A DNA stretch of 10,888 bases from a virus (Duplodnaviria > Heunggongvirae > Uroviricota > Caudoviricetes), in IMG/VR virus record IMGVR_UViG_2529293142_000034, positions 1-10,888 of that record; one strand, given 5' to 3'. The notes below the pieces were generated by a model. The model ran no database searches. It saw nothing but the letters and a program-made list of their open reading frames with translations, and was not told the origin of the DNA. A program made the translations under genes and the position numbers. This document shows, piece after piece, positions 1,362 to 10,888 of the stretch (the first letter of the stretch is position 1; each line of letters starts with the position of its first letter).

Positions 1362-3657
1362 TTAAATTACTTCGACATTTTGATCATCATTAGCACTTTG
1401 CTGAACGTCGACATTAATGTCATCATCATTCGGCAGAGCCTTATAATATTCTCCCATCATCATTTTATAATGTGCAGCATTATCGCTGTATTCAAATATT
1501 TTCTGGAATATATTGAGATTTTTACTAACCGAGTTTTGGTCTAGAGCAATGTAAAGATCGTCATTTGAATGATGTGAACCGTCATTAATCCAAGATATCA
1601 ATGAATTAAATGCTATTTTTTCATCACCATCAAAATGTTTTTCGAGTTTCCATACATTAAATCCACCTAAAATTTTAAAGTAATTTTCAAGAATTCTTCT
1701 CATTGTGTTTTGTACTGTTGTGCAATTAATATCAGGGCGCCTTATCTCACTCCATAGTAAATCATATGAAGTTTTAATTGGATTGCATGCATGGCTTTCA
1801 ATGAACGATAATTTATCCTTTTTCCTAATGACCCAAAATGTTTCATCAGGACGAGCAGTATCTAAATTTCTATTCATATCGAAAGTTAACTCTTTATGAA
1901 AATAAATATTGTGAGTTAGGAAAAAGACCTGTTTTATACGGCCATTATTGTCTCTAATGTCTTTTATAAGTTTTTTCATTAATGAGCTAACTATAAACAG
2001 AATATCACTATCTAAACTTGATATAGGATCATCAAAGACAACTACTCGATCGTTCATTACACCAGATGTTGAATTACTTCCTTTGATGAGATTATAGAAA
2101 TATAGGAATGTGATAAAAGTTTTCTCACCCTCACTGAGTGTGCTTAGGGCATTATCACCATTTTCACGTACGATTCTATAGCTAAACGAATCGGATGTCG
2201 GTGCAAGGCTAAAATTTTTGAAGCCAAATGATAAAAGTATCTTATTTATAGCAGTGATTGTTGGCGTGACACTGGTTCTTTTAGATTCCTCGCTGGATAT
2301 ATTTTCAATGATATCATCTAATCTGACTTTGTCTTTTTCTAAACCCTTAATTAACCCTTCCTTAGCTCTATTTAACTGTTCCTTATCAGTATTATATTTA
2401 TTTATTTTATCAGCCAGTTCAACTTTAACTATATAATGCCATATTTCTTTTGTTAGTTTTTCTCTTTCCATGCTCCTGTTTTTGTATAGTTCATTATTTT
2501 CAAAAACTTGATTGTTAGCTGCAAGAATGATGTCTAATAATTCTTTGCCAGGCTCTAGAAGTCCTGTCATAGCGACAGGTGTACTTAATTCAGCCAATTT
2601 TCTTTTTGCTTCATCTATATTCCTTGATAATATTGATAGAATTAATTTGGATTTTGTGTTAAACAAATCCAAATCAAGGAAGGCATAGTTCCCTTCATTT
2701 ATTTTCGCAACATATTCATCAAATAAACGATACTCATGAGTATAATTTTTTAGTAATACATTAATGCTTTCTGTTTTTTCTAAATATTTTGTGTCAAAGT
2801 AACTTTCTAAATCCGATTTCAAACTACTGGGCGTATTTTGTTGGCAAAATGGACATTTGGTTTCAAGGTTATCATAGTACTTTATCCCTTCTTTAACCCA
2901 GTCACTGTTATCTAGTTGCCTTATGATTTCGGCAACGCTTGCATCTTCTTTTCCAAGAATTTTCTCTTTCCATATTTCATCGTCAACTATTTTTTTATGT
3001 TGCTAAAATTTGGTAAGGGAATTATATTGTGAACTGTTAGCGAGTCTGAGTAAACACTACCAGCCTTCGATATTAAGTATGGTAACTGGTGTAAATCTAC
3101 TTCTTTTGAATATAGCTCCTCTAATACCTTTGATTTGAATTTTTCCTGGCTGCTTCTTAAACCTTCAAATGCTTTATAGAAGTAATCATCATGTTTTTCT
3201 TTTGATTCCAGCAATCATTTTTGAAATCCAATTCAATTTTTTCAAGTTTTTGATAGATACCTAAATTTGCATTATCATTGTTATTTAAATTTCTTTTCTT
3301 GGAATCTATTGAGCTTTGCTCTTTATCCCTTTGTTGTATCAATTTGTCTATGTTATCTGTGAGCTCTTTTGTTTCTTCACCTAAAGTAAAAATACCTTTA
3401 ATACTATCTCCAGAAAAATTATTTACAACAAAATCCCTGTTGTAGACATAAGGAGTTAATTGATTGTTGTTTTTCCATTTAATCTGGCAAGTTGGAAAGC
3501 CTAAAGCATTATGAATTATTTTGCTAATTGTAGTTTTTCCAGCACCATTTGAGCCATATATGTAATTGATTTTCATTAGAGGCATCATATATTGAACGTC
3601 ATTTCCATATGAACCGGCTTGAGAAACGCTTATAGACTCTATCATTATCTTTTTCAT
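1362..3657 (-). CDS. Cargo gene: RloC/PrrC-like ABC-type ATPase with central CPFC motif and C-terminal putative nuclease domain (about 765 aa when joined); interrupted in this sequence by two homopolymer frameshifts
   Basis: Three adjacent minus-strand ORFs (3157-3657, 2987-3214, 1362-2822) join into one frame if one base is added at the T5 run 3194-3198 and at the T7 run 2990-2996. Walker A YGSNGAGKTT is at 3535-3558; reading the 1362-2822 frame upstream of its TTG start gives ...KYYDNLETKCPFCQQNTPSS (CPFC at 2844-2855). Signature-like LSEGEK, Walker B/D-loop VVVFDDPISSLD (about 2025-2045) and H-loop FFLTHN follow. Family assignment (AAA_13 / RloC-PrrC-like) is from motif recall, not a search. 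Confidence 0.7.
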
Positions 3658-3736: not shown

Positions 3737-3780
3737 ACAGTGGTAAATAAACACAGTGGTAAATAAACACAGTGGTAATC
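3737..3780. repeat. Tandem direct repeat, 16-bp unit ACAGTGGTAAATAAAC x about 2.7, lying 80-125 bp upstream of the cargo gene start
   Basis: Exact copies at 3737-3752 and 3753-3768, partial third copy at 3769-3780 (ACAGTGGTAATC); a related CAAGTGGTTTAGTG follows near 3791. Confidence 0.8.
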
Positions 3781-4063: not shown

Positions 4064-4635
4064 TTACACTGACTGACGTGATGCCAGTTGCGCACTTTTA
4101 CGCGAAAAAATCATGTTCTGCGCAGGGGTGAATTTTTCACGGCTGTCATCCACCGAAGCCGCGTCAGGCCTGAATCCGATGGTCGTTAAAATGTCGCTAT
4201 CCTGTGCGGAATAATTAATTTTTCCCCCTTCGCAAGCCAGGACAGAAGGGCTTCACGCAGGGCATCTGTGGCACGCTGTATGGCACAGTTTCGGGCAATG
4301 GCCGTCAGCTCACTGTATCCCATCAGCTCCGGTGCCAGTGCCGCCGCCAGTGCTGTGCCGTGCTGCTGCATAAAATCATTCAGCCGGTCGCGGATGCTGA
4401 TGTGCTGAACGGCTTCATGCGAACGAATATAACGACCGGCGGCCTGATTCACCTGCCATTTTCTGACTTCGATAATATTGCGTAATTCGTCCAGGCGACT
4501 GACGTTTCTGCCTTCCCCGGACAGAAGCCGCAGATATTCCTGTTCGGCCGCAGCCAGCTCATTTTTGCGTTGCAGCCATGCTGCTTTGTTATTCTGACAG
4601 GTGTCAAAGGCCTGCTGTAAGGCTGTGCTTTCCAT
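4064..4635 (-). CDS. psu: Psu polarity-suppression / capsid-decoration protein (190 aa after a one-base correction); C-terminus out of frame here because of a homopolymer indel
   Basis: ORF 4186-4635 (149 aa) ends ...LSWLAKGEKLIIPHRIATF*. The adjacent frame reads KINYSAQDSDILTTIGFRPDAASVDDSREKFTPAQNMIFSRKSAQLASRQSV* to a stop at 4064-4066. The join needs one extra T in the T5 run 4219-4223 and gives 139+51 = 190 aa, the length of P4 Psu as I recall it. Confidence 0.85.
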
Positions 4636-4707
4636 CGTTATCTCTTTCTCATCATGCTGAAGAATAAAATACGGTGTGCGGCGACGGCCGGTGTTAACCG
4701 GCAGCCC

Positions 4708-5208
4708 TCATTCCAGACGCAGCGAATATGATTGTGTTTTTAAGCGTACTGGCGGCAGTTCCTGTTTTTCATGCAGGCTTTCTGCCAGTTCGTCCGGCGT
4801 GACCGGGCGGACAATGAAACGGTTGATGGTCTGAAGCGTTTTAAACACCAGACCACAGCCCGGATCCGTGCACACATAAAAACGCTCGGTGACTTCCTGA
4901 GACAGACGCCTCGATGTTCTTGACAGTGCAAGGCCTTTACATCTCCGACAACAATATCCGGTAACAAGCATTCTTTTCGGGCGTTTCATACTGCCGGAGG
5001 CTGACGTCAGTGAATCGCGGTATCTCTGTTTGCCTGAAATGTATTCCATTCCTGAATCTTTACTGTCAGAGAAAAAGCTTTCACTCGCTTCAAATGTCGC
5101 AGAGCAATAAATATTCCGGCACTGTGCAATCATTATCTTGGTGCCATCGTCCATGAAATGTGCGCGGCGGGTGTGAGCAACATGTCCACACGACGGGCAG
5201 TAAATCAT
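4708..5208 (-). CDS. delta: Delta late-gene transcription activator with two tandem Ogr-type zinc-finger domains (166 aa)
   Basis: Intact 166-aa ORF with two C-x2-C-x22-C-x4-C modules (CPSCGHVAHTRRAHFMDDGTKIMIAQCRNIYC and CCRRCKGLALSRTSRRLSQEVTERFYVCTDPGC). Its ATG (5208-5206) overlaps the sid stop as ATGA. Confidence 0.9.
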   Translation of the reverse strand: MIYCPSCGHVAHTRRAHFMDDGTKIMIAQCRNIYCSATFEASESFFSDSKDSGMEYISGKQRYRDSLTSASGSMKRPKRMLVTGYCCRRCKGLALSRTSRRLSQEVTERFYVCTDPGCGLVFKTLQTINRFIVRPVTPDELAESLHEKQELPPVRLKTQSYSLRLE

Positions 5209-5938
5209 GACAGCAGTCCTCTGGCCTTAAGCTCTGCTCCCTGCTGGTCTATTTTGTCCTGCCACACCTTGCGCTGTGCCGGTGTGCCTGCCACCTCATA
5301 ATCCATGTGCGGGAGTGTTGCCGCTGACAGTCCGGTCAGCCGGAGAACCGGCTCACCGGTGAGGCTGATTTGCATCTGTTTTATTTTCTGTTCCAGCGAT
5401 GATTTCACCTGCTGCATGACAGCCTTTTCCGGTGCGACGTAGCCCTGATGGCCGGTGGCGTTGGCGAGCGGATTTTCCTGTACCAGAATGCTCAGATGCA
5501 TTGCCCGGACAAGCGCCTCACAGGTTTCATTCAGGGCGTGTTCCAGCTCATGCTCTGCATACAGACTCAGCAGGTGATGATGTGCCTTCCGGTAGGCGGT
5601 GGCCGTGCTGTCACACGCCCCTTTCAGGCGTTCACGTTCAAAATTCAGCACCACGGCCAGATTGTCATATTCCTGTACCAGCTCCCGGCGTGCCACGCGC
5701 TCAATGTGGCGCTGTTTCAGCTCGTCGCTCAGGACACCACCGGCTGCACGAAAGGCTGTGCGCCAGTCATCAGCGTCATTTCCGTCGGCCTGCGCCAGCG
5801 CATTTTTTCCTGCTCTGCCCGTTCAATGGCCTTGACGGTCTCATCCATCAGTCGGGCGTTCTCAAGGTGGGCGGCTCTGGCCTTTTCCAGTTGTGCCAGT
5901 GCGGGTTGCAGATATTCAGGGATGGTGTTGTCAGACAT
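5205..5938 (-). CDS. sid: Sid capsid size-determination (external scaffold) protein (244 aa after a one-base correction); split in this sequence by a homopolymer indel
   Basis: ORFs 5729-5956 and 5205-5696 join if one T is added to the T6 run 5803-5808: ...AIERAEQEK + NALAQADGNDADDWRTAFRAAGGVLSDELKQRHIER + VARRELV.... Starting from ATG 5938 (GAGGAG Shine-Dalgarno 7 nt upstream) gives 45+36+163 = 244 aa, the P4 Sid length as I recall it. Confidence 0.85.
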
Positions 5939-5972
5939 TTTCCGGCTCCTCGTCACTTCAGGTTAAGAAAAT

Positions 5973-6028
5973 TGTGACGTACACCGGACAACAACACGAC
6001 GCATTGCAGATGTGCCAGTCCTGACACA
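5973..6028 (-). promoter_or_regulatory. Candidate late promoter for sid-delta-psu with two TGT-N12-ACA activator sites of the Ogr/Delta type, centres 38 bp apart
   Basis: TGT-N12-ACA read at 5973-5990 and 6011-6028. If the distal site is centred near -55, the start of transcription falls about 5964 and the proximal site near -18, leaving a roughly 25-nt leader before sid ATG 5938. The -55/-18 arrangement is recalled for P4 late promoters. Confidence 0.55.
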
Positions 6029-6106
6029 GGAGACTCATCCTCAGACCGGCAAGCCAGGAAAAGGTCGCAGGAAAAACCGGCTTACTGTTTGTTTTTTTAT
6101 ATTTTA

Positions 6107-6220
6107 CTGTTCACCTCTGTTCACCATAAGAAAAAAGATAAGTAATACAGTAAGTTAAAGGGTGAACAATCGCAGTAATGACTGTTCACCGTCTGTTCAC
6201 CACTGTTCACCCGTTCATGG
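6107..6220. repeat. Phased 9-mer repeats CTGTTCACC (five direct copies, one inverted, one degenerate) in the divergent control region between sid and alpA
   Basis: Direct copies at 6107-6115, 6117-6125, 6182-6190, 6193-6201 and 6203-6211 (10-11 bp spacing within each cluster); inverted copy GGTGAACAA at 6161-6169; degenerate CGTTCATGG at 6212-6220. Existence is certain; function is inferred. Confidence 0.8.
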
Positions 6221-6295
6221 ACTTTTTGTGCTGTTTATTACTTTTTATTTTTATTAATTAACTGAAATAAATAAGAAAAACAATTTGTATTTCAC

Positions 6296-6301
6296 TATAA
6301 T
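6296..6301 (+). promoter_or_regulatory. Consensus -10 hexamer TATAAT facing alpA; candidate early promoter element
   Basis: TATAAT at 6296-6301 in an AT-rich stretch; no convincing -35 at 17 bp spacing, so this is weak. Confidence 0.25.
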
Positions 6302-6490
6302 TTTTTCCAGCTCCTTCCAGAGCGTTTTTAAAAGCTATCTGGCGCTGATGTGCAAAAAACACACAGCCATTGTAAGGCTGCCGGAACAAATCCCCCCTGT
6401 TGCGTCTGCCAAAAATATTCACAAAATAAAGCGCTACCCCGAAGCCGGACGGACTTATCCGGTGCTGTATGGACATTACGAGGTAGCCCG

Positions 6491-6760
6491 ATGCTAAGCC
6501 TGTTTTTTCTCCCCGTCTCCTGCCCCTGTGACGCCACTGATGCCGCTGCCGGACATCACGCAGGTAGCGTTTTTTTACGCTGCCGGAAGTGATGCACCTG
6601 TGCGGCCTGTCACGCTCGACCATCTATGAACTCATCCGTAAGGGGGAATTTCCGCCGCAGGTGAGTCTTGGCGGTAAAAAATGTGGCCTGGCTGCACTCT
6701 GAAATCACCGCATGGATGGCCGGGCGCATTGCCGGACGCAAACGGGGGTACGACGCATGA
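6491..6760 (+). CDS. alpA: AlpA-family (Vis/excisionase-like) helix-turn-helix regulator; reading frame broken twice at homopolymers in this sequence
   Basis: Core at 6580-6702 reads [34 protein letters not shown]...; removing one A from the A6 run 6676-6681 continues as ...[29 protein letters not shown] (stop 6758-6760), a close fit to the AlpA-family pattern. No in-frame start precedes the core unless one T is added to the T7 run 6570-6576, which joins it to ATG 6491 (GAGG 7 nt upstream). N-terminal boundary is uncertain. Confidence 0.65.
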
Positions 6761-7158
6761 TGATGCCCGCTCTGCAAAAAGTCCCTTTTTCTGGCTTGCC
6801 TTTTTCCGGCATTTGCGGATATAGTTTTTCTGCTGCCGCAAAATCGGCAGCCGGGCGTGGAAACCCGAGCAATTCACAGGCGGCATATGACGCGCCATGC
6901 GTCTTTTTTTGTGTCGCAATCAACGCCACAGAGCGCCAGATTATGGTGTGGTGTGTGGTCAGTCGTGCAGATGGCATTCCGTGCATCCTGCCCGCGTCCG
7001 CTCATTATGCCGCAGAGTCAATGGTAGCTCAGGCGGGGCAGCCTCCGGGCTGGCCGGTATCCTGTGAAGCCGGTATTTCCACCCCCGTCTGGGCTATCGC
7101 CATCGAGCGTGGAAACTCCGGCGATAGCGTTATTTGCTATTCACAGGAGGCTGCCATC

Positions 7159-8554: not shown

Positions 8555-10888
8555 ATGAAAATGAACGTAACCGCCACCGTCAGCCATGCACTCGGCCACT
8601 GGCCGCGTATCCTCCCGGCGCTGGGGATTCAGGTGCTGAAGAACCGTCATCAGCCCTGTCCGGTCTGTGGCGGGAGTGACCGCTTCCGTTTTGATGACAG
8701 GGAGGGGCGCGGCACCTGGTACTGCAATCAGTGTGGTGCCGGTGACGGCCTGAAACTGGTTGAAAAGGTGTTTGGTGTTTCCCCGTCCGATGCGGCCGCA
8801 AAGGTGGCTGCCGTGACCGGCAGCCTGCCCCCGGCTGACCCGGCAGTGACGGCTGCCGCCGGTGCTGAAACAGACGCTGCCCGGAAGAACGCCGCCGCAC
8901 TGGCACAAACCCTGATGGCGAAAACCCGTCCCGGAACCGGTAACGCCTACCTGACCCGCAAGGGCTTTCCCGGCCGGGAATGCCGGATGCTGACCGGCAC
9001 ACACAGAGCCGGTGGCGTGAGCTGGCGTGCCGGTGACCTTGTGGTGCCACTGTATGACGACAGCGGCGAACTGGTTAACCTTCAGTTAATCAGTGCTGAC
9101 GGCCGTAAGCGCACCCTGAAAGGCGGACAGGTCAGGGGCACCTGTCACACCCTTGAAGGACAGAATCAGGCCGGAAAACGTCTGTGGATAGCGGAGGGAT
9201 ACGCGACCGCACTTACCGTGCATCACCTGACCGGTGAAACGGTGATGGTGGCGCTTTCTTCCGTGAATCTCCTTTCTCTGGCCAGCCTTGCCCGGCAGAA
9301 GCATCCGGCCTGTCAGATTGTCCTTGCTGCTGACCGTGACCTCAGCGGTGACGGCCAGAAAAAAGCCGCCGCAGCCGCAGATGCGTGTGAAGGTGTTGTT
9401 GCCCTGCCGCCGGTCTTCGGTGACTGGAATGATGCCTTCACGCAGTACGGCGGGGAAGCCACCCGTAAGGCCATTTATGATGCCATCCGGCCACCGGCTG
9501 AAAGCCCGTTCGACACCATGAGCGAAGCGGAGTTTTCCGCCATGAGTACCAGCGAAAAGGCCATGCGTATCTATGAGCATTACGGCGAGGCGCTCGCGGT
9601 CGATGCCAACGGCCAGCTTCTGTCCCGCTATGAAAATGGTGTCTGGAAGGTGCTGCCGCCACAGGACTTTGCCCGGGATGTGGCCGGGCTGTTTCAGCGT
9701 CTGCGCGCGCCGTTCTCCTCCGGGAAGGTGGCCTCCGTGGTGGACACCCTGAAGCTGATTATTCCGCAGCAGGAAGCCCCCTCCCGCCGCCTGATTGGCT
9801 TTCGTAACGGCGTGCTCGACACGCAGAACGGCACGTTCCACCCGCACAGTCCGTCACACTGGATGCGCACCCTGTGTGATGTGGATTTCACCCCGCCAGT
9901 GGAAGGGGAAACGCTGGAAACCCACGCCCCCGCGTTCTGGCGCTGGCTTGACCGTGCCGCCGGTGGCCGTGCGGAAAAACGCGACGTGATTCTGGCCGCA
10001 CTGTTTATGGTGCTGGCAAACCGCTACGACTGGCAGCTCTTTCTGGAGGTGACCGGTCCCGGCGGCAGCGGCAAAAGTATCATGGCCGAAATAGCCACCC
10101 TGCTGGCCGGGGAGGATAACGCCACATCGGCCACCATTGAGACGCTGGAATCCCCGCGTGAACGTGCCGCGTTAACTGGCTTCTCACTGATACGCCTGCC
10201 GGACCAGGAAAAATGGAGCGGCGACGGTGCCGGACTCAAGGCCATCACCGGCGGCGATGCGGTGTCCGTTGACCCGAAATACCGGGATGCGTACTCCACG
10301 CACATCCCGGCGGTGATTCTGGCCGTGAACAATAACCCGATGCGCTTCACCGACCGCAGCGGCGGCGTGTCACGCCGGCGGGTGATTATTCACTTCCCTG
10401 AACAGATAGCCCCGCAGGAGCGCGACCCGCAGCTTAAGGACAAAATCACCCGCGAGCTGGCGGTCATCGTGCGTCACCTGATGCAGAAATTCAGCGACCC
10501 GATGCTCGCCCGGTCACTGCTTCAGTCCCAGCAAAACTCAGACGAGGCGCTGAACATCAAACGGGATGCCGACCCGACGTTTGATTTTATCGGCTATCTG
10601 GAAACCCTGCCGCAGACCAGCGGCATGTATATGGGGAACGCCAGTATCATCCCGCGCAATTACCGTAAATACCTCTATCACGCCTATCTGGCCTACATGG
10701 AGGCAAACGGCTACCGGAACGTACTCAGTCTGAAAATGTTCGGGCTGGGGCTGCCGGTGATGCTGAAGGAATACGGACTGAATTACGAGAAGCGCCATAC
10801 CAAACAGGGGATACAGACCAACCTGACGCTGAAAGAGGAAAGCTACGGCGACTGGCTGCCAAAATGTGACGACCCTGCAACAACCTGA
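8555..10888 (+). CDS. alpha: Alpha protein: P4-type primase/helicase (zinc finger + Toprim primase + D5-like NTPase), 777 aa, complete
   Basis: AGGAG 9 nt upstream of ATG 8555. N-terminal zinc-binding motif CPVCGGSDRFRFDD...CNQCG, Toprim-like acidic region (EGYATAL ... LAADRDLSGDG) and Walker A GPGGSGKS at 10055-10078. The 777-aa length equals that of P4 alpha as I recall it. Confidence 0.93.
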   Translation: MKMNVTATVSHALGHWPRILPALGIQVLKNRHQPCPVCGGSDRFRFDDREGRGTWYCNQCGAGDGLKLVEKVFGVSPSDAAAKVAAVTGSLPPADPAVTAAAGAETDAARKNAAALAQTLMAKTRPGTGNAYLTRKGFPGRECRMLTGTHRAGGVSWRAGDLVVPLYDDSGELVNLQLISADGRKRTLKGGQVRGTCHTLEGQNQAGKRLWIAEGYATALTVHHLTGETVMVALSSVNLLSLASLARQKHPACQIVLAADRDLSGDGQKKAAAAADACEGVVALPPVFGDWNDAFTQYGGEATRKAIYDAIRPPAESPFDTMSEAEFSAMSTSEKAMRIYEHYGEALAVDANGQLLSRYENGVWKVLPPQDFARDVAGLFQRLRAPFSSGKVASVVDTLKLIIPQQEAPSRRLIGFRNGVLDTQNGTFHPHSPSHWMRTLCDVDFTPPVEGETLETHAPAFWRWLDRAAGGRAEKRDVILAALFMVLANRYDWQLFLEVTGPGGSGKSIMAEIATLLAGEDNATSATIETLESPRERAALTGFSLIRLPDQEKWSGDGAGLKAITGGDAVSVDPKYRDAYSTHIPAVILAVNNNPMRFTDRSGGVSRRRVIIHFPEQIAPQERDPQLKDKITRELAVIVRHLMQKFSDPMLARSLLQSQQNSDEALNIKRDADPTFDFIGYLETLPQTSGMYMGNASIIPRNYRKYLYHAYLAYMEANGYRNVLSLKMFGLGLPVMLKEYGLNYEKRHTKQGIQTNLTLKEESYGDWLPKCDDPATT

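What the first reader, a model, noticed from the sequence alone, without database searches (positions are those of the whole stretch)
5973..6028. Two TGT-N12-ACA activator sites 38 bp apart upstream of sid: late-promoter architecture of the P4 type
The Ogr/Delta family recognises TGT-N12-ACA. Two copies with centres 38 bp apart, placed to sit near -55 and -18 of a leftward promoter, fit the two-site arrangement recalled for P4 late promoters. The capsid-hijacking genes would then still be under helper or self (Delta) late control. A single TGT-N12-ACA occurs by chance a few times per 10 kb, so it is the pairing and position that carry the weight.
Basis: partly seen in the sequence, partly recalled or inferred. 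Interest (0 to 1): 0.45.

Follow-up and report, generated by a model that had tools for sequence, protein, structure and literature searches.

The report
Satellite phage P4 sid late promoter
The two TGT-N12-ACA motifs are real and are the already characterised late promoter (Psid) of satellite phage P4, copied almost base for base in a P4-like prophage, so the finding is correct but ordinary.

Summary
Both TGT-N12-ACA motifs are at the stated coordinates. A pair this close is uncommon by chance: 97 of 3000 dinucleotide shuffles have a pair within 60 bp, and 16 of 3000 have one 33-43 bp apart. The window is a P4-like satellite prophage. Region 5900-6260 is 98% identical to phage P4, and the only difference inside either motif is the centre base of the distal dyad (6019).

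This is therefore P4 Psid. The distal dyad lies at -64..-47, the -10 is CACAAT (5976-5971), the predicted start is A5964, and the proximal dyad lies at -26..-9. The distal geometry matches the annotated site-to-start distance of phage P2 promoter PO.

In 176 related loci the distal dyad (TGTGyCA-N4-TGsCACA) is conserved in every clade. The exact proximal motif occurs only in the P4 clade. All non-P4-type loci recovered have TGT-N12-AGA there, and the conserved bases can be explained by the -10 hexamer.

The delta activator gene is intact. sid, psu and vis carry single-base indels in the window as given, probably sequence-quality artefacts.

Verdict: already known, low interest.

The parts
6011..6028 (.). 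Distal TGT-N12-ACA dyad of Psid. On the transcribed (minus) strand it reads TGTGTCAGGACTGGCACA and lies at -64..-47 from the predicted start. It is the main Delta/Ogr activator site.
   Evidence: match. (identical to P4 except centre base 6019). (TGTGyCA-N4-TGsCACA conserved in all clades, central 4 nt variable, position fixed). (same distance to the start as P2 PO).
5973..5990 (.). Proximal TGT-N12-ACA dyad. On the minus strand it reads TGTCCGGTGTACGTCACA and lies at -26..-9, overlapping the -10 hexamer. It is the secondary Delta site of P4 Psid, and its role is probably modulatory.
   Evidence: identical to P4. (same 18-mer in all 140 P4-type loci). (ACA is AGA in all non-P4-type loci; TGT is invariant).
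5971..5976 (-). -10 hexamer CACAAT (family form CAnAAT) of Psid.
   Evidence: Read. C, A, A, A and T are invariant in 18 of 18 unique promoters. No consensus sigma-70 promoter with a -35 was found, as expected for an activator-dependent promoter.
5964..5964 (-). Predicted transcription start (an A, 7 nt after the -10 hexamer). It was not mapped here.
   Evidence: The A is invariant in 18 of 18 unique promoters. This start puts the distal dyad at -64..-47, exactly as in P2 PO.
5946..5950 (-). Shine-Dalgarno sequence AGGAG of sid, 7 nt before the ATG at 5938.
   Evidence: Read. X02534 annotates a potential Shine-Dalgarno sequence at the equivalent place.
5205..5938 (-). sid (capsid size determination), first gene of the late operon. 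In the window the frame is broken after codon 45 by a 1-bp deletion in an A/T run at 5803.
   Evidence: The gene is intact (244 aa) in relatives BEN5202 and RM10740.
4708..5208 (-). delta, 166 aa, with two Ogr/Delta zinc-finger domains. It is the cognate activator and is intact.
   Evidence: ORF. (PF04606, 2 stretches, E = 6.9e-22). The protein is identical to the commonest Delta variant among related loci.
4064..4635 (-). psu, last gene of the operon. In the window it is truncated to 149 aa by a 1-bp deletion at 4219. The left end coordinate is approximate.
   Evidence: PF07455, profile positions 1-136 of 182. The protein is 190 aa in relatives.
6371..6388 (.). TGT-N12-ACA dyad of the divergent late promoter PLL, which reads rightward towards vis/alpA. 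The putative -10 is CAAAAT at about 6423-6428.
   Evidence: In P4-type loci TGTAAG...GAACA is constant while the spacer varies.

Best explanation
The 56-bp interval is the core of Psid, the late promoter of satellite phage P4, carried by a P4-like prophage integrated next to a tRNA-Leu gene in its close E. coli relatives. Transcription runs leftward from about A5964 through sid, delta and psu.

The promoter has a usable -10 (CACAAT) but no recognisable -35, so it needs an activator. The distal dyad, centred at -55.5, is the site where zinc-finger activators of the Ogr/Delta family bind. These are the satellite's own Delta or the helper phage's Ogr. By established knowledge of P2 and P4 they recruit RNA polymerase through the alpha subunit C-terminal domain.

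The proximal dyad, centred at -17.5, covers the spacer and the -10 hexamer. In P4 it is, as I recall, a second Delta footprint. From its position I infer that it tunes or limits expression rather than providing the activation.

Shown here: sequence identity with P4, the geometry, family-wide conservation of the distal dyad, and an intact delta gene. Inferred or recalled: activator binding, the exact start point, and the role of the proximal site.
For:: window 5600-6700 is 93.6% identical to P4 (X51522); 5900-6260 is 98% identical, and both motifs match P4 except base 6019; this 122-bp promoter occurs at 95% identity or more in 982 of 5426 complete E. coli genomes; the P2 record annotates activator sites and starts, and the P2 PO site lies at -64..-47, the same as the window's distal dyad if the start is A5964; in 18 unique promoters from genera such as Klebsiella, Raoultella, Citrobacter, Enterobacter and Scandinavium (Sid 57-66% identical), TGTG-CA and T-CACA are invariant (two further half-site positions vary in a few sequences), the four central bases vary freely, there are no indels between the dyad and the -10, and CAnAAT and the +1 A are invariant; no consensus sigma-70 promoter is present; delta is intact with two Ogr_Delta domains; a paper in the library confirms TGT-N12-ACA as the consensus of Ogr-dependent P2 late promoters; a 2026 paper cites Reiter et al. 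1998 for psu-delta-sid being contiguous genes under one promoter.
Against: No transcription start was mapped for this element, so A5964 is a prediction. The primary papers on Delta footprints were not readable here, so the claim that Delta binds at -18 is from memory. The proximal motif is not conserved as TGT-N12-ACA outside the P4 clade, which weakens any claim that it is a general feature of satellite sid promoters. In the window as given, sid and psu are frameshifted, so the operon's function in this copy is uncertain.
Confidence: 0.93

Rival explanations
1. Both dyads are cooperating activator sites. The two-domain Delta, or two Delta molecules, would occupy -55 and -18 together, and both contacts would be needed for full activation.
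For: Both are exact TGT-N12-ACA matches. All 140 P4-type loci keep the proximal 18-mer unchanged. Most of these loci encode the 166-aa two-domain Delta.
Against: The proximal site covers -26..-9, including the -10 hexamer, where a bound protein would normally compete with sigma-70. The centres are 38 bp apart, about 3.6 helical turns, so the sites face different sides of the helix (inference). All non-P4-type loci recovered have AGA instead of ACA there. Thirteen loci combine the P4-type two-site promoter with an 81-aa single-domain Delta, so the second site is not tied to the double activator. P2 late promoters work with one site. My recollection of Reiter et al. 1998 is that the -18 site is not required for activation.
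Confidence: 0.15
2. Only the distal dyad is a protein site. The proximal TGT-N12-ACA is a by-product of promoter core sequence: a conserved TCGTGTTGTTGT block plus a CAnAAT -10 hexamer that happens to read ACA in the P4 clade.
For:: A(-11) and A(-9) of the 'ACA' belong to the invariant -10 hexamer, and the middle base is G in 16 of 18 unique promoters. The TGT is part of a 12-nt block (-35..-24) that is invariant or nearly so in all clades. The interior of the proximal site varies freely.
Against: From memory and unverified here, Delta footprints this region in P4. The PLL dyad, a recognised late-promoter site, shares no more than the TGT and ACA triplets with the distal Psid dyad either, so the proximal site is as good a match as a site regarded as functional.
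Confidence: 0.2
3. The pair is a chance co-occurrence of a short degenerate motif.
For: The total count of motifs in the window (4 against 2.3 expected) is not significant.
Against: A pair within 60 bp occurs in 3.2% of shuffles, and a pair 33-43 bp apart in 0.5%. The sequence is that of the P4 sid promoter. The distal dyad is conserved across clades at a fixed position.
Confidence: 0.01

Closest known systems
Psid, the sid (late) promoter of satellite bacteriophage P4 (X51522 / NC_001609)
   Same: The sequence is the same. Window 5900-6260 is 98% identical, both TGT-N12-ACA motifs have the same spacing and the same distance to the sid ATG, and the same Shine-Dalgarno sequence and sid-delta-psu operon follow.
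   Different: One base differs at the centre of the distal dyad (6019 is T here and C in P4). That column varies freely across the family, and 9 related loci share the window's variant. In the window as given, sid and psu carry 1-bp deletions.
Late promoters PP, PO, PV and PF of helper phage P2 (NC_001895)
   Same: They are activator-dependent promoters with a dyad centred about 55 bp upstream of the start and no good -35. The P2 PO site occupies -64..-47, exactly like the distal dyad here. The same activator family (Ogr/Delta) acts on them.
   Different: P2 promoters have a single annotated activator site, and none of them is an exact TGT-N12-ACA (PO and PF read TGT-N12-CCA). They have no second dyad over the -10. 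The sequence between the site and the -10 is unrelated.
sid promoters of P4-like satellites that encode a single-domain Delta (67-87 aa; phiR73-like by my recollection)
   Same: The distal dyad, the distance to the -10, the CAnAAT hexamer, the +1 A and the conserved blocks CnGCAA and TCGTGTTGTTGT are all the same.
   Different: The proximal element reads TGT-N12-AGA, not ACA, and no exact TGT-N12-ACA lies at the PLL position. Sid is only 57-66% identical.
PLL, the second P4 late promoter (window 6371-6388)
   Same: It has an exact TGT-N12-ACA about 55 bp upstream of a CAAAAT -10-like hexamer, divergent from Psid. The triplets are conserved while the spacer varies in P4-type loci.
   Different: It has a single exact dyad with no second one over the -10. 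It drives vis/alpA and the replication operon rather than the capsid-size genes.

Membership tests
Ogr/Delta-activated late promoters of P2 and P4 | A dyad of the TGT-N12-ACA type centred about 55 bp upstream of the transcription start. | tested here: met
   The dyad at 6011-6028 lies 35 bp upstream of the CACAAT hexamer (5976-5971). With the start at A5964 it spans -64..-47, identical to the annotated P2 PO site and start. The start itself is predicted, not mapped.
Ogr/Delta-activated late promoters of P2 and P4 | A sigma-70 -10 element with a poor or absent -35, so the promoter depends on an activator. | tested here: met
   The consensus scan finds no sigma-70 promoter in 5700-6800. CAnAAT is invariant across 18 unique promoters. 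The -35..-30 sequence TCGTGT matches TTGACA at only 2 of 6 positions (read).
Ogr/Delta-activated late promoters of P2 and P4 | A cognate Ogr/Delta-family zinc-finger activator encoded by the element or its helper. | tested here: met
   delta (4708-5208, minus strand) is intact at 166 aa, with two PF04606 stretches and two CX2CX22CX4C motifs. Whether a helper is present could not be assessed from the window.
Ogr/Delta-activated late promoters of P2 and P4 | Transcription depends on Delta or Ogr and on the RNA polymerase alpha C-terminal domain. | not testable with these tools
   This needs a reporter fusion with and without Delta or Ogr, and an rpoA109-type host.
P4 Psid specifically | Sequence orthology with P4 Psid, immediately upstream of sid-delta-psu. 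| tested here: met
   98% identity over 361 bp and the same gene order.
P4 Psid specifically | A second dyad centred near -18. | tested here: met
   TGTCCGGTGTACGTCACA at -26..-9 is identical to P4 and to all 140 P4-type loci. Binding by Delta was not testable here.

The most novel reading that the evidence does not exclude
The exact -18 dyad may be an innovation of the P4 clade. A single base change, G to C at -10, turns TGT-N12-AGA into TGT-N12-ACA. This could give Delta negative feedback on its own operon, since delta lies downstream of Psid. Satellites of the other clade would lack that feedback. Natural mosaics that pair the two-site promoter with a single-domain Delta would be ready-made test cases.
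Probability: 0.25. Interest if true: 0.3.

Novelty: already known. Interest (0 to 1): 0.08.

Why it matters
It matters little as a discovery. Psid and its Delta/Ogr sites were characterised in the 1980s and 1990s, and this copy is nearly identical. The result is useful for annotation. It fixes the orientation and regulatory layout of the element (Psid, ori, PLL) and shows that the late-control circuit (promoter plus delta) is intact in this copy.

The comparative result adds a small point. The -55 dyad is universal among P4-like satellites sampled from several enterobacterial genera. The exact -18 dyad and the exact PLL dyad are confined to the P4 clade.

Tried and rejected
1. I tried to read the primary papers: Julien and Calendar 1995 (PMC177091), Reiter et al. 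1998 (PMC107552), the Lindqvist 1993 review (PMC372931), Christie and Dokland 2012 (PMC3518693) and the 2016 P2 review. None is held. Full-text searches found only citations. The -55/-18 footprint and the function of the -18 site are therefore stated from memory.

2. I tested whether the exact second dyad goes together with the tandem two-domain Delta. The first 19 genome loci fitted this perfectly. With 176 loci, 13 have the P4-type promoter with an 81-aa single-domain Delta, so a strict link is rejected.

3. I asked whether the sid, psu and vis frameshifts mean a decaying prophage. Against the closest allele (Ec1120), 446 bp differ by about 11 indels and 1 substitution. The other indels sit in homopolymer runs. 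Sequence-quality artefact is therefore the likelier reading, though decay is not excluded.

4. I looked for phiR73 in the phage collection to name the second clade. It is not there.

5. X02534 annotates a 'consensus -10' inside what is now known to be the distal activator site. I treated this as an outdated guess.

Full report
**Observation.** The pattern TGT-N12-ACA occurs four times in the window: 5973-5990, 6011-6028, 6371-6388 and 10865-10882. Shuffles give 2.3 +/- 1.5, so the count is unremarkable. The first two are 38 bp apart. In 3000 dinucleotide-preserving shuffles, a pair within 60 bp appeared in 97 and a pair 33-43 bp apart in 16.

**What the region is.** Window 5600-6700 matches phage P4 (X51522, NC_001609, X02534) at 93.6% over its full length. 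The gene order is that of a P4-like satellite:
- integrase, 1-1263;
- a hotspot gene;
- psu, delta (4708-5208) and sid (start codon at 5938), all on the minus strand;
- an intergenic region holding the P4 ori type-1 repeats;
- vis/alpA and the operon that ends with the alpha primase, 8555-10888.

An alignment of 5900-6260 with P4 is 98% identical. Inside the two motifs the only difference is base 6019 (T here, C in P4), the centre of the distal dyad. The finding is therefore the P4 sid promoter, Psid. The same 122 bp occur at 95% identity or more in 982 of 5426 complete E. coli genomes.

**Geometry.** On the transcribed strand the sequence reads TGTGTCAGGACTGGCACA - 20 nt - TGTCCGGTGTACGTCACA-AT-TTTCTT-A..., followed by AGGAG - 7 nt - ATG.
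- CACAAT (5976-5971) is the only -10-like hexamer at a sensible distance, and it places the start at A5964.
- The distal dyad then spans -64..-47 (centre -55.5) and the proximal one -26..-9 (centre -17.5).
- The P2 genome record annotates activator sites and transcription starts for its late promoters. The P2 PO site occupies exactly -64..-47.
- A consensus scan finds no sigma-70 promoter with a -35 in 5700-6800, which fits an activator-dependent promoter.

**Comparative evidence.** I collected Sid homologues and aligned 19 of them. With that alignment I fetched 19 loci from species-representative genomes, 80 from IMG/VR and 80 from metagenomes. Among 18 unique promoters from the genome set (Sid 57-66% identical outside the P4 clade), searches show the following.
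- The distal dyad reads TGTGyCA-N4-TGsCACA throughout. TGTG-CA and T-CACA are invariant, two further half-site positions vary in a few sequences, and the four central bases vary freely.
- There is no indel between the dyad and the -10.
- CAnAAT and the +1 A are invariant.

This is the signature of a protein-binding dyad held at a fixed distance from the core promoter.

The proximal motif behaves differently. Its TGT is invariant but sits inside a 12-nt block that is invariant or nearly so (TCGTGTTGTTGT, -35..-24). The two A's of its ACA belong to the -10 hexamer. The middle base is G in 16 of 18 unique promoters, giving TGT-N12-AGA. Over 176 loci, the exact proximal motif is found in all 140 P4-type loci, with an invariant 18-mer, and in none of the others. 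Within the P4 clade the only polymorphisms inside the distal dyad are at -60 (one locus) and at the centre, -55. Ten sequences in that set, the two E. coli relatives among them, share the window's variant there.

**The activator.** The window's delta is intact at 166 aa, with two Ogr_Delta zinc-finger stretches. It is identical to the commonest variant among related loci. The non-P4 clade encodes single-domain Deltas of 67-87 aa. I tested whether the exact -18 dyad is tied to the two-domain Delta. It is not strictly tied, because 13 loci combine the P4-type sid and promoter with an 81-aa single-domain Delta.

**Mechanism.** By established knowledge of P2 and P4, Ogr/Delta-family zinc-finger proteins bind the -55 dyad and activate through the alpha subunit of RNA polymerase. 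Either the satellite's Delta or the helper's Ogr can do this, which couples sid-delta-psu expression to the helper's late phase. A paper in the library confirms the TGT-N12-ACA consensus and Ogr dependence for P2. Another cites Reiter et al. 1998 for psu-delta-sid being contiguous genes under one promoter. As I recall, Julien and Calendar 1995 reported Delta footprints at -55 and -18 of Psid, and Reiter et al. 1998 analysed them further. I could not read either paper.

I infer that the -18 site modulates or limits expression rather than activating, for three reasons. It covers the -10 hexamer. It lies about 3.6 helical turns from the distal site. It is not conserved as ACA outside the P4 clade. 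This is the least certain part of the account.

**Surroundings.**
- The third motif (6371-6388) is the PLL dyad, about 55 bp upstream of a CAAAAT hexamer and reading towards vis. In P4-type loci TGTAAG...GAACA is constant while the spacer varies. The other clade has no exact motif there.
- The CTGTTCACC repeats at 6100-6215 are the P4 ori type-1 repeats.
- The window as given has 1-bp deletions in homopolymer runs that break the hotspot gene (2990, 3194), psu (4219) and sid (5803), and a cluster of indels that break vis.
- Both close relatives have all these genes intact.
- Against the closest allele of 6255-6700, the differences are about 11 indels and 1 substitution. This points to sequence-quality artefacts rather than decay.
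- No indel falls inside 5939-6060.

**Verdict.** The feature is the well-known P4 Psid late promoter in a P4-like prophage. Novelty: already known. Interest is low.

Noticed in passing
window 5803 (sid, 5205-5938, minus strand): A 1-bp deletion in an A/T homopolymer run shifts the sid frame after codon 45. Sid residues from about 82 to 244 continue in another frame (ORF 5205-5696). Close relatives have an intact 244-aa Sid.
   Followed up: yes
window 4219 (psu, about 4064-4635, minus strand): A 1-bp deletion in a T run truncates Psu to 149 aa instead of 190. Another 1-bp deletion lies at 4666, between psu and delta.
   Followed up: partly
window 6437-6676 (vis/alpA, about 6491-6760, plus strand): A cluster of single-base insertions and deletions breaks the 88-aa AlpA-family vis gene, giving a stop after about 32 codons. 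Against E. coli Ec1120, region 6255-6700 differs by about 11 indels and only 1 substitution. That pattern looks like sequencing or assembly error rather than natural divergence.
   Followed up: partly
window 1362-3657, minus strand: The gene in the hotspot between int and psu is a 761-aa AAA_13 ATPase in relatives and matches the PADLOC candidate defence family PDC-S06 (E = 6e-259). In the window it is split into 486-aa and 166-aa ORFs by homopolymer deletions at 2990 and 3194. A 16-bp segment present in BEN5202 is also missing at 3737, in the hotspot-psu intergenic region.
   Followed up: partly
window 6100-6215 and 6296-6345: Six CTGTTCACC repeats are the P4 ori type-1 repeats. The segment that carries the three ori type-2 repeats in P4 is replaced here by unrelated sequence. 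This is a natural allele also present in E. coli Ec1120.
   Followed up: partly
window 6371-6388: This third TGT-N12-ACA is the PLL late-promoter dyad. Among about 130 P4-type loci the outer TGTAAG and GAACA stay constant while the spacer varies. Loci of the single-domain-Delta clade have no exact motif at this position.
   Followed up: partly
loci L087, L107, L111, L113, L118, L135, L137, L150, L159 and others (13 in all): These mosaic satellites have a P4-type sid (98-100% identical) and a P4-type two-dyad Psid, followed by an 81-aa single-domain Delta instead of the 166-aa two-domain Delta. This implies recombination at the sid-delta boundary.
   Followed up: partly
window 5988-5999 and 6004-6009 (-35..-24 and -45..-40 of Psid): The blocks TCGTGTTGTTGT and CnGCAA are invariant or nearly so across all satellite clades sampled, as conserved as the activator half-sites. 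They are absent from P2 late promoters, and their function is unknown.
   Followed up: no
window 10865-10882: The fourth TGT-N12-ACA lies in the last codons of the alpha primase gene. It is identical in relatives as coding sequence and is probably a chance match.
   Followed up: partly
locus L023 (phage P2) 3057-3087, 10239-10266, 17555-17583: None of the annotated P2 late-promoter activator sites is an exact TGT-N12-ACA. PO/PP and PF read TGT-N12-CCA, and PV fits TGT-N11-ACA. All five exact matches in the P2 genome lie elsewhere, so an exact-pattern scan would miss the real P2 sites.
   Followed up: no
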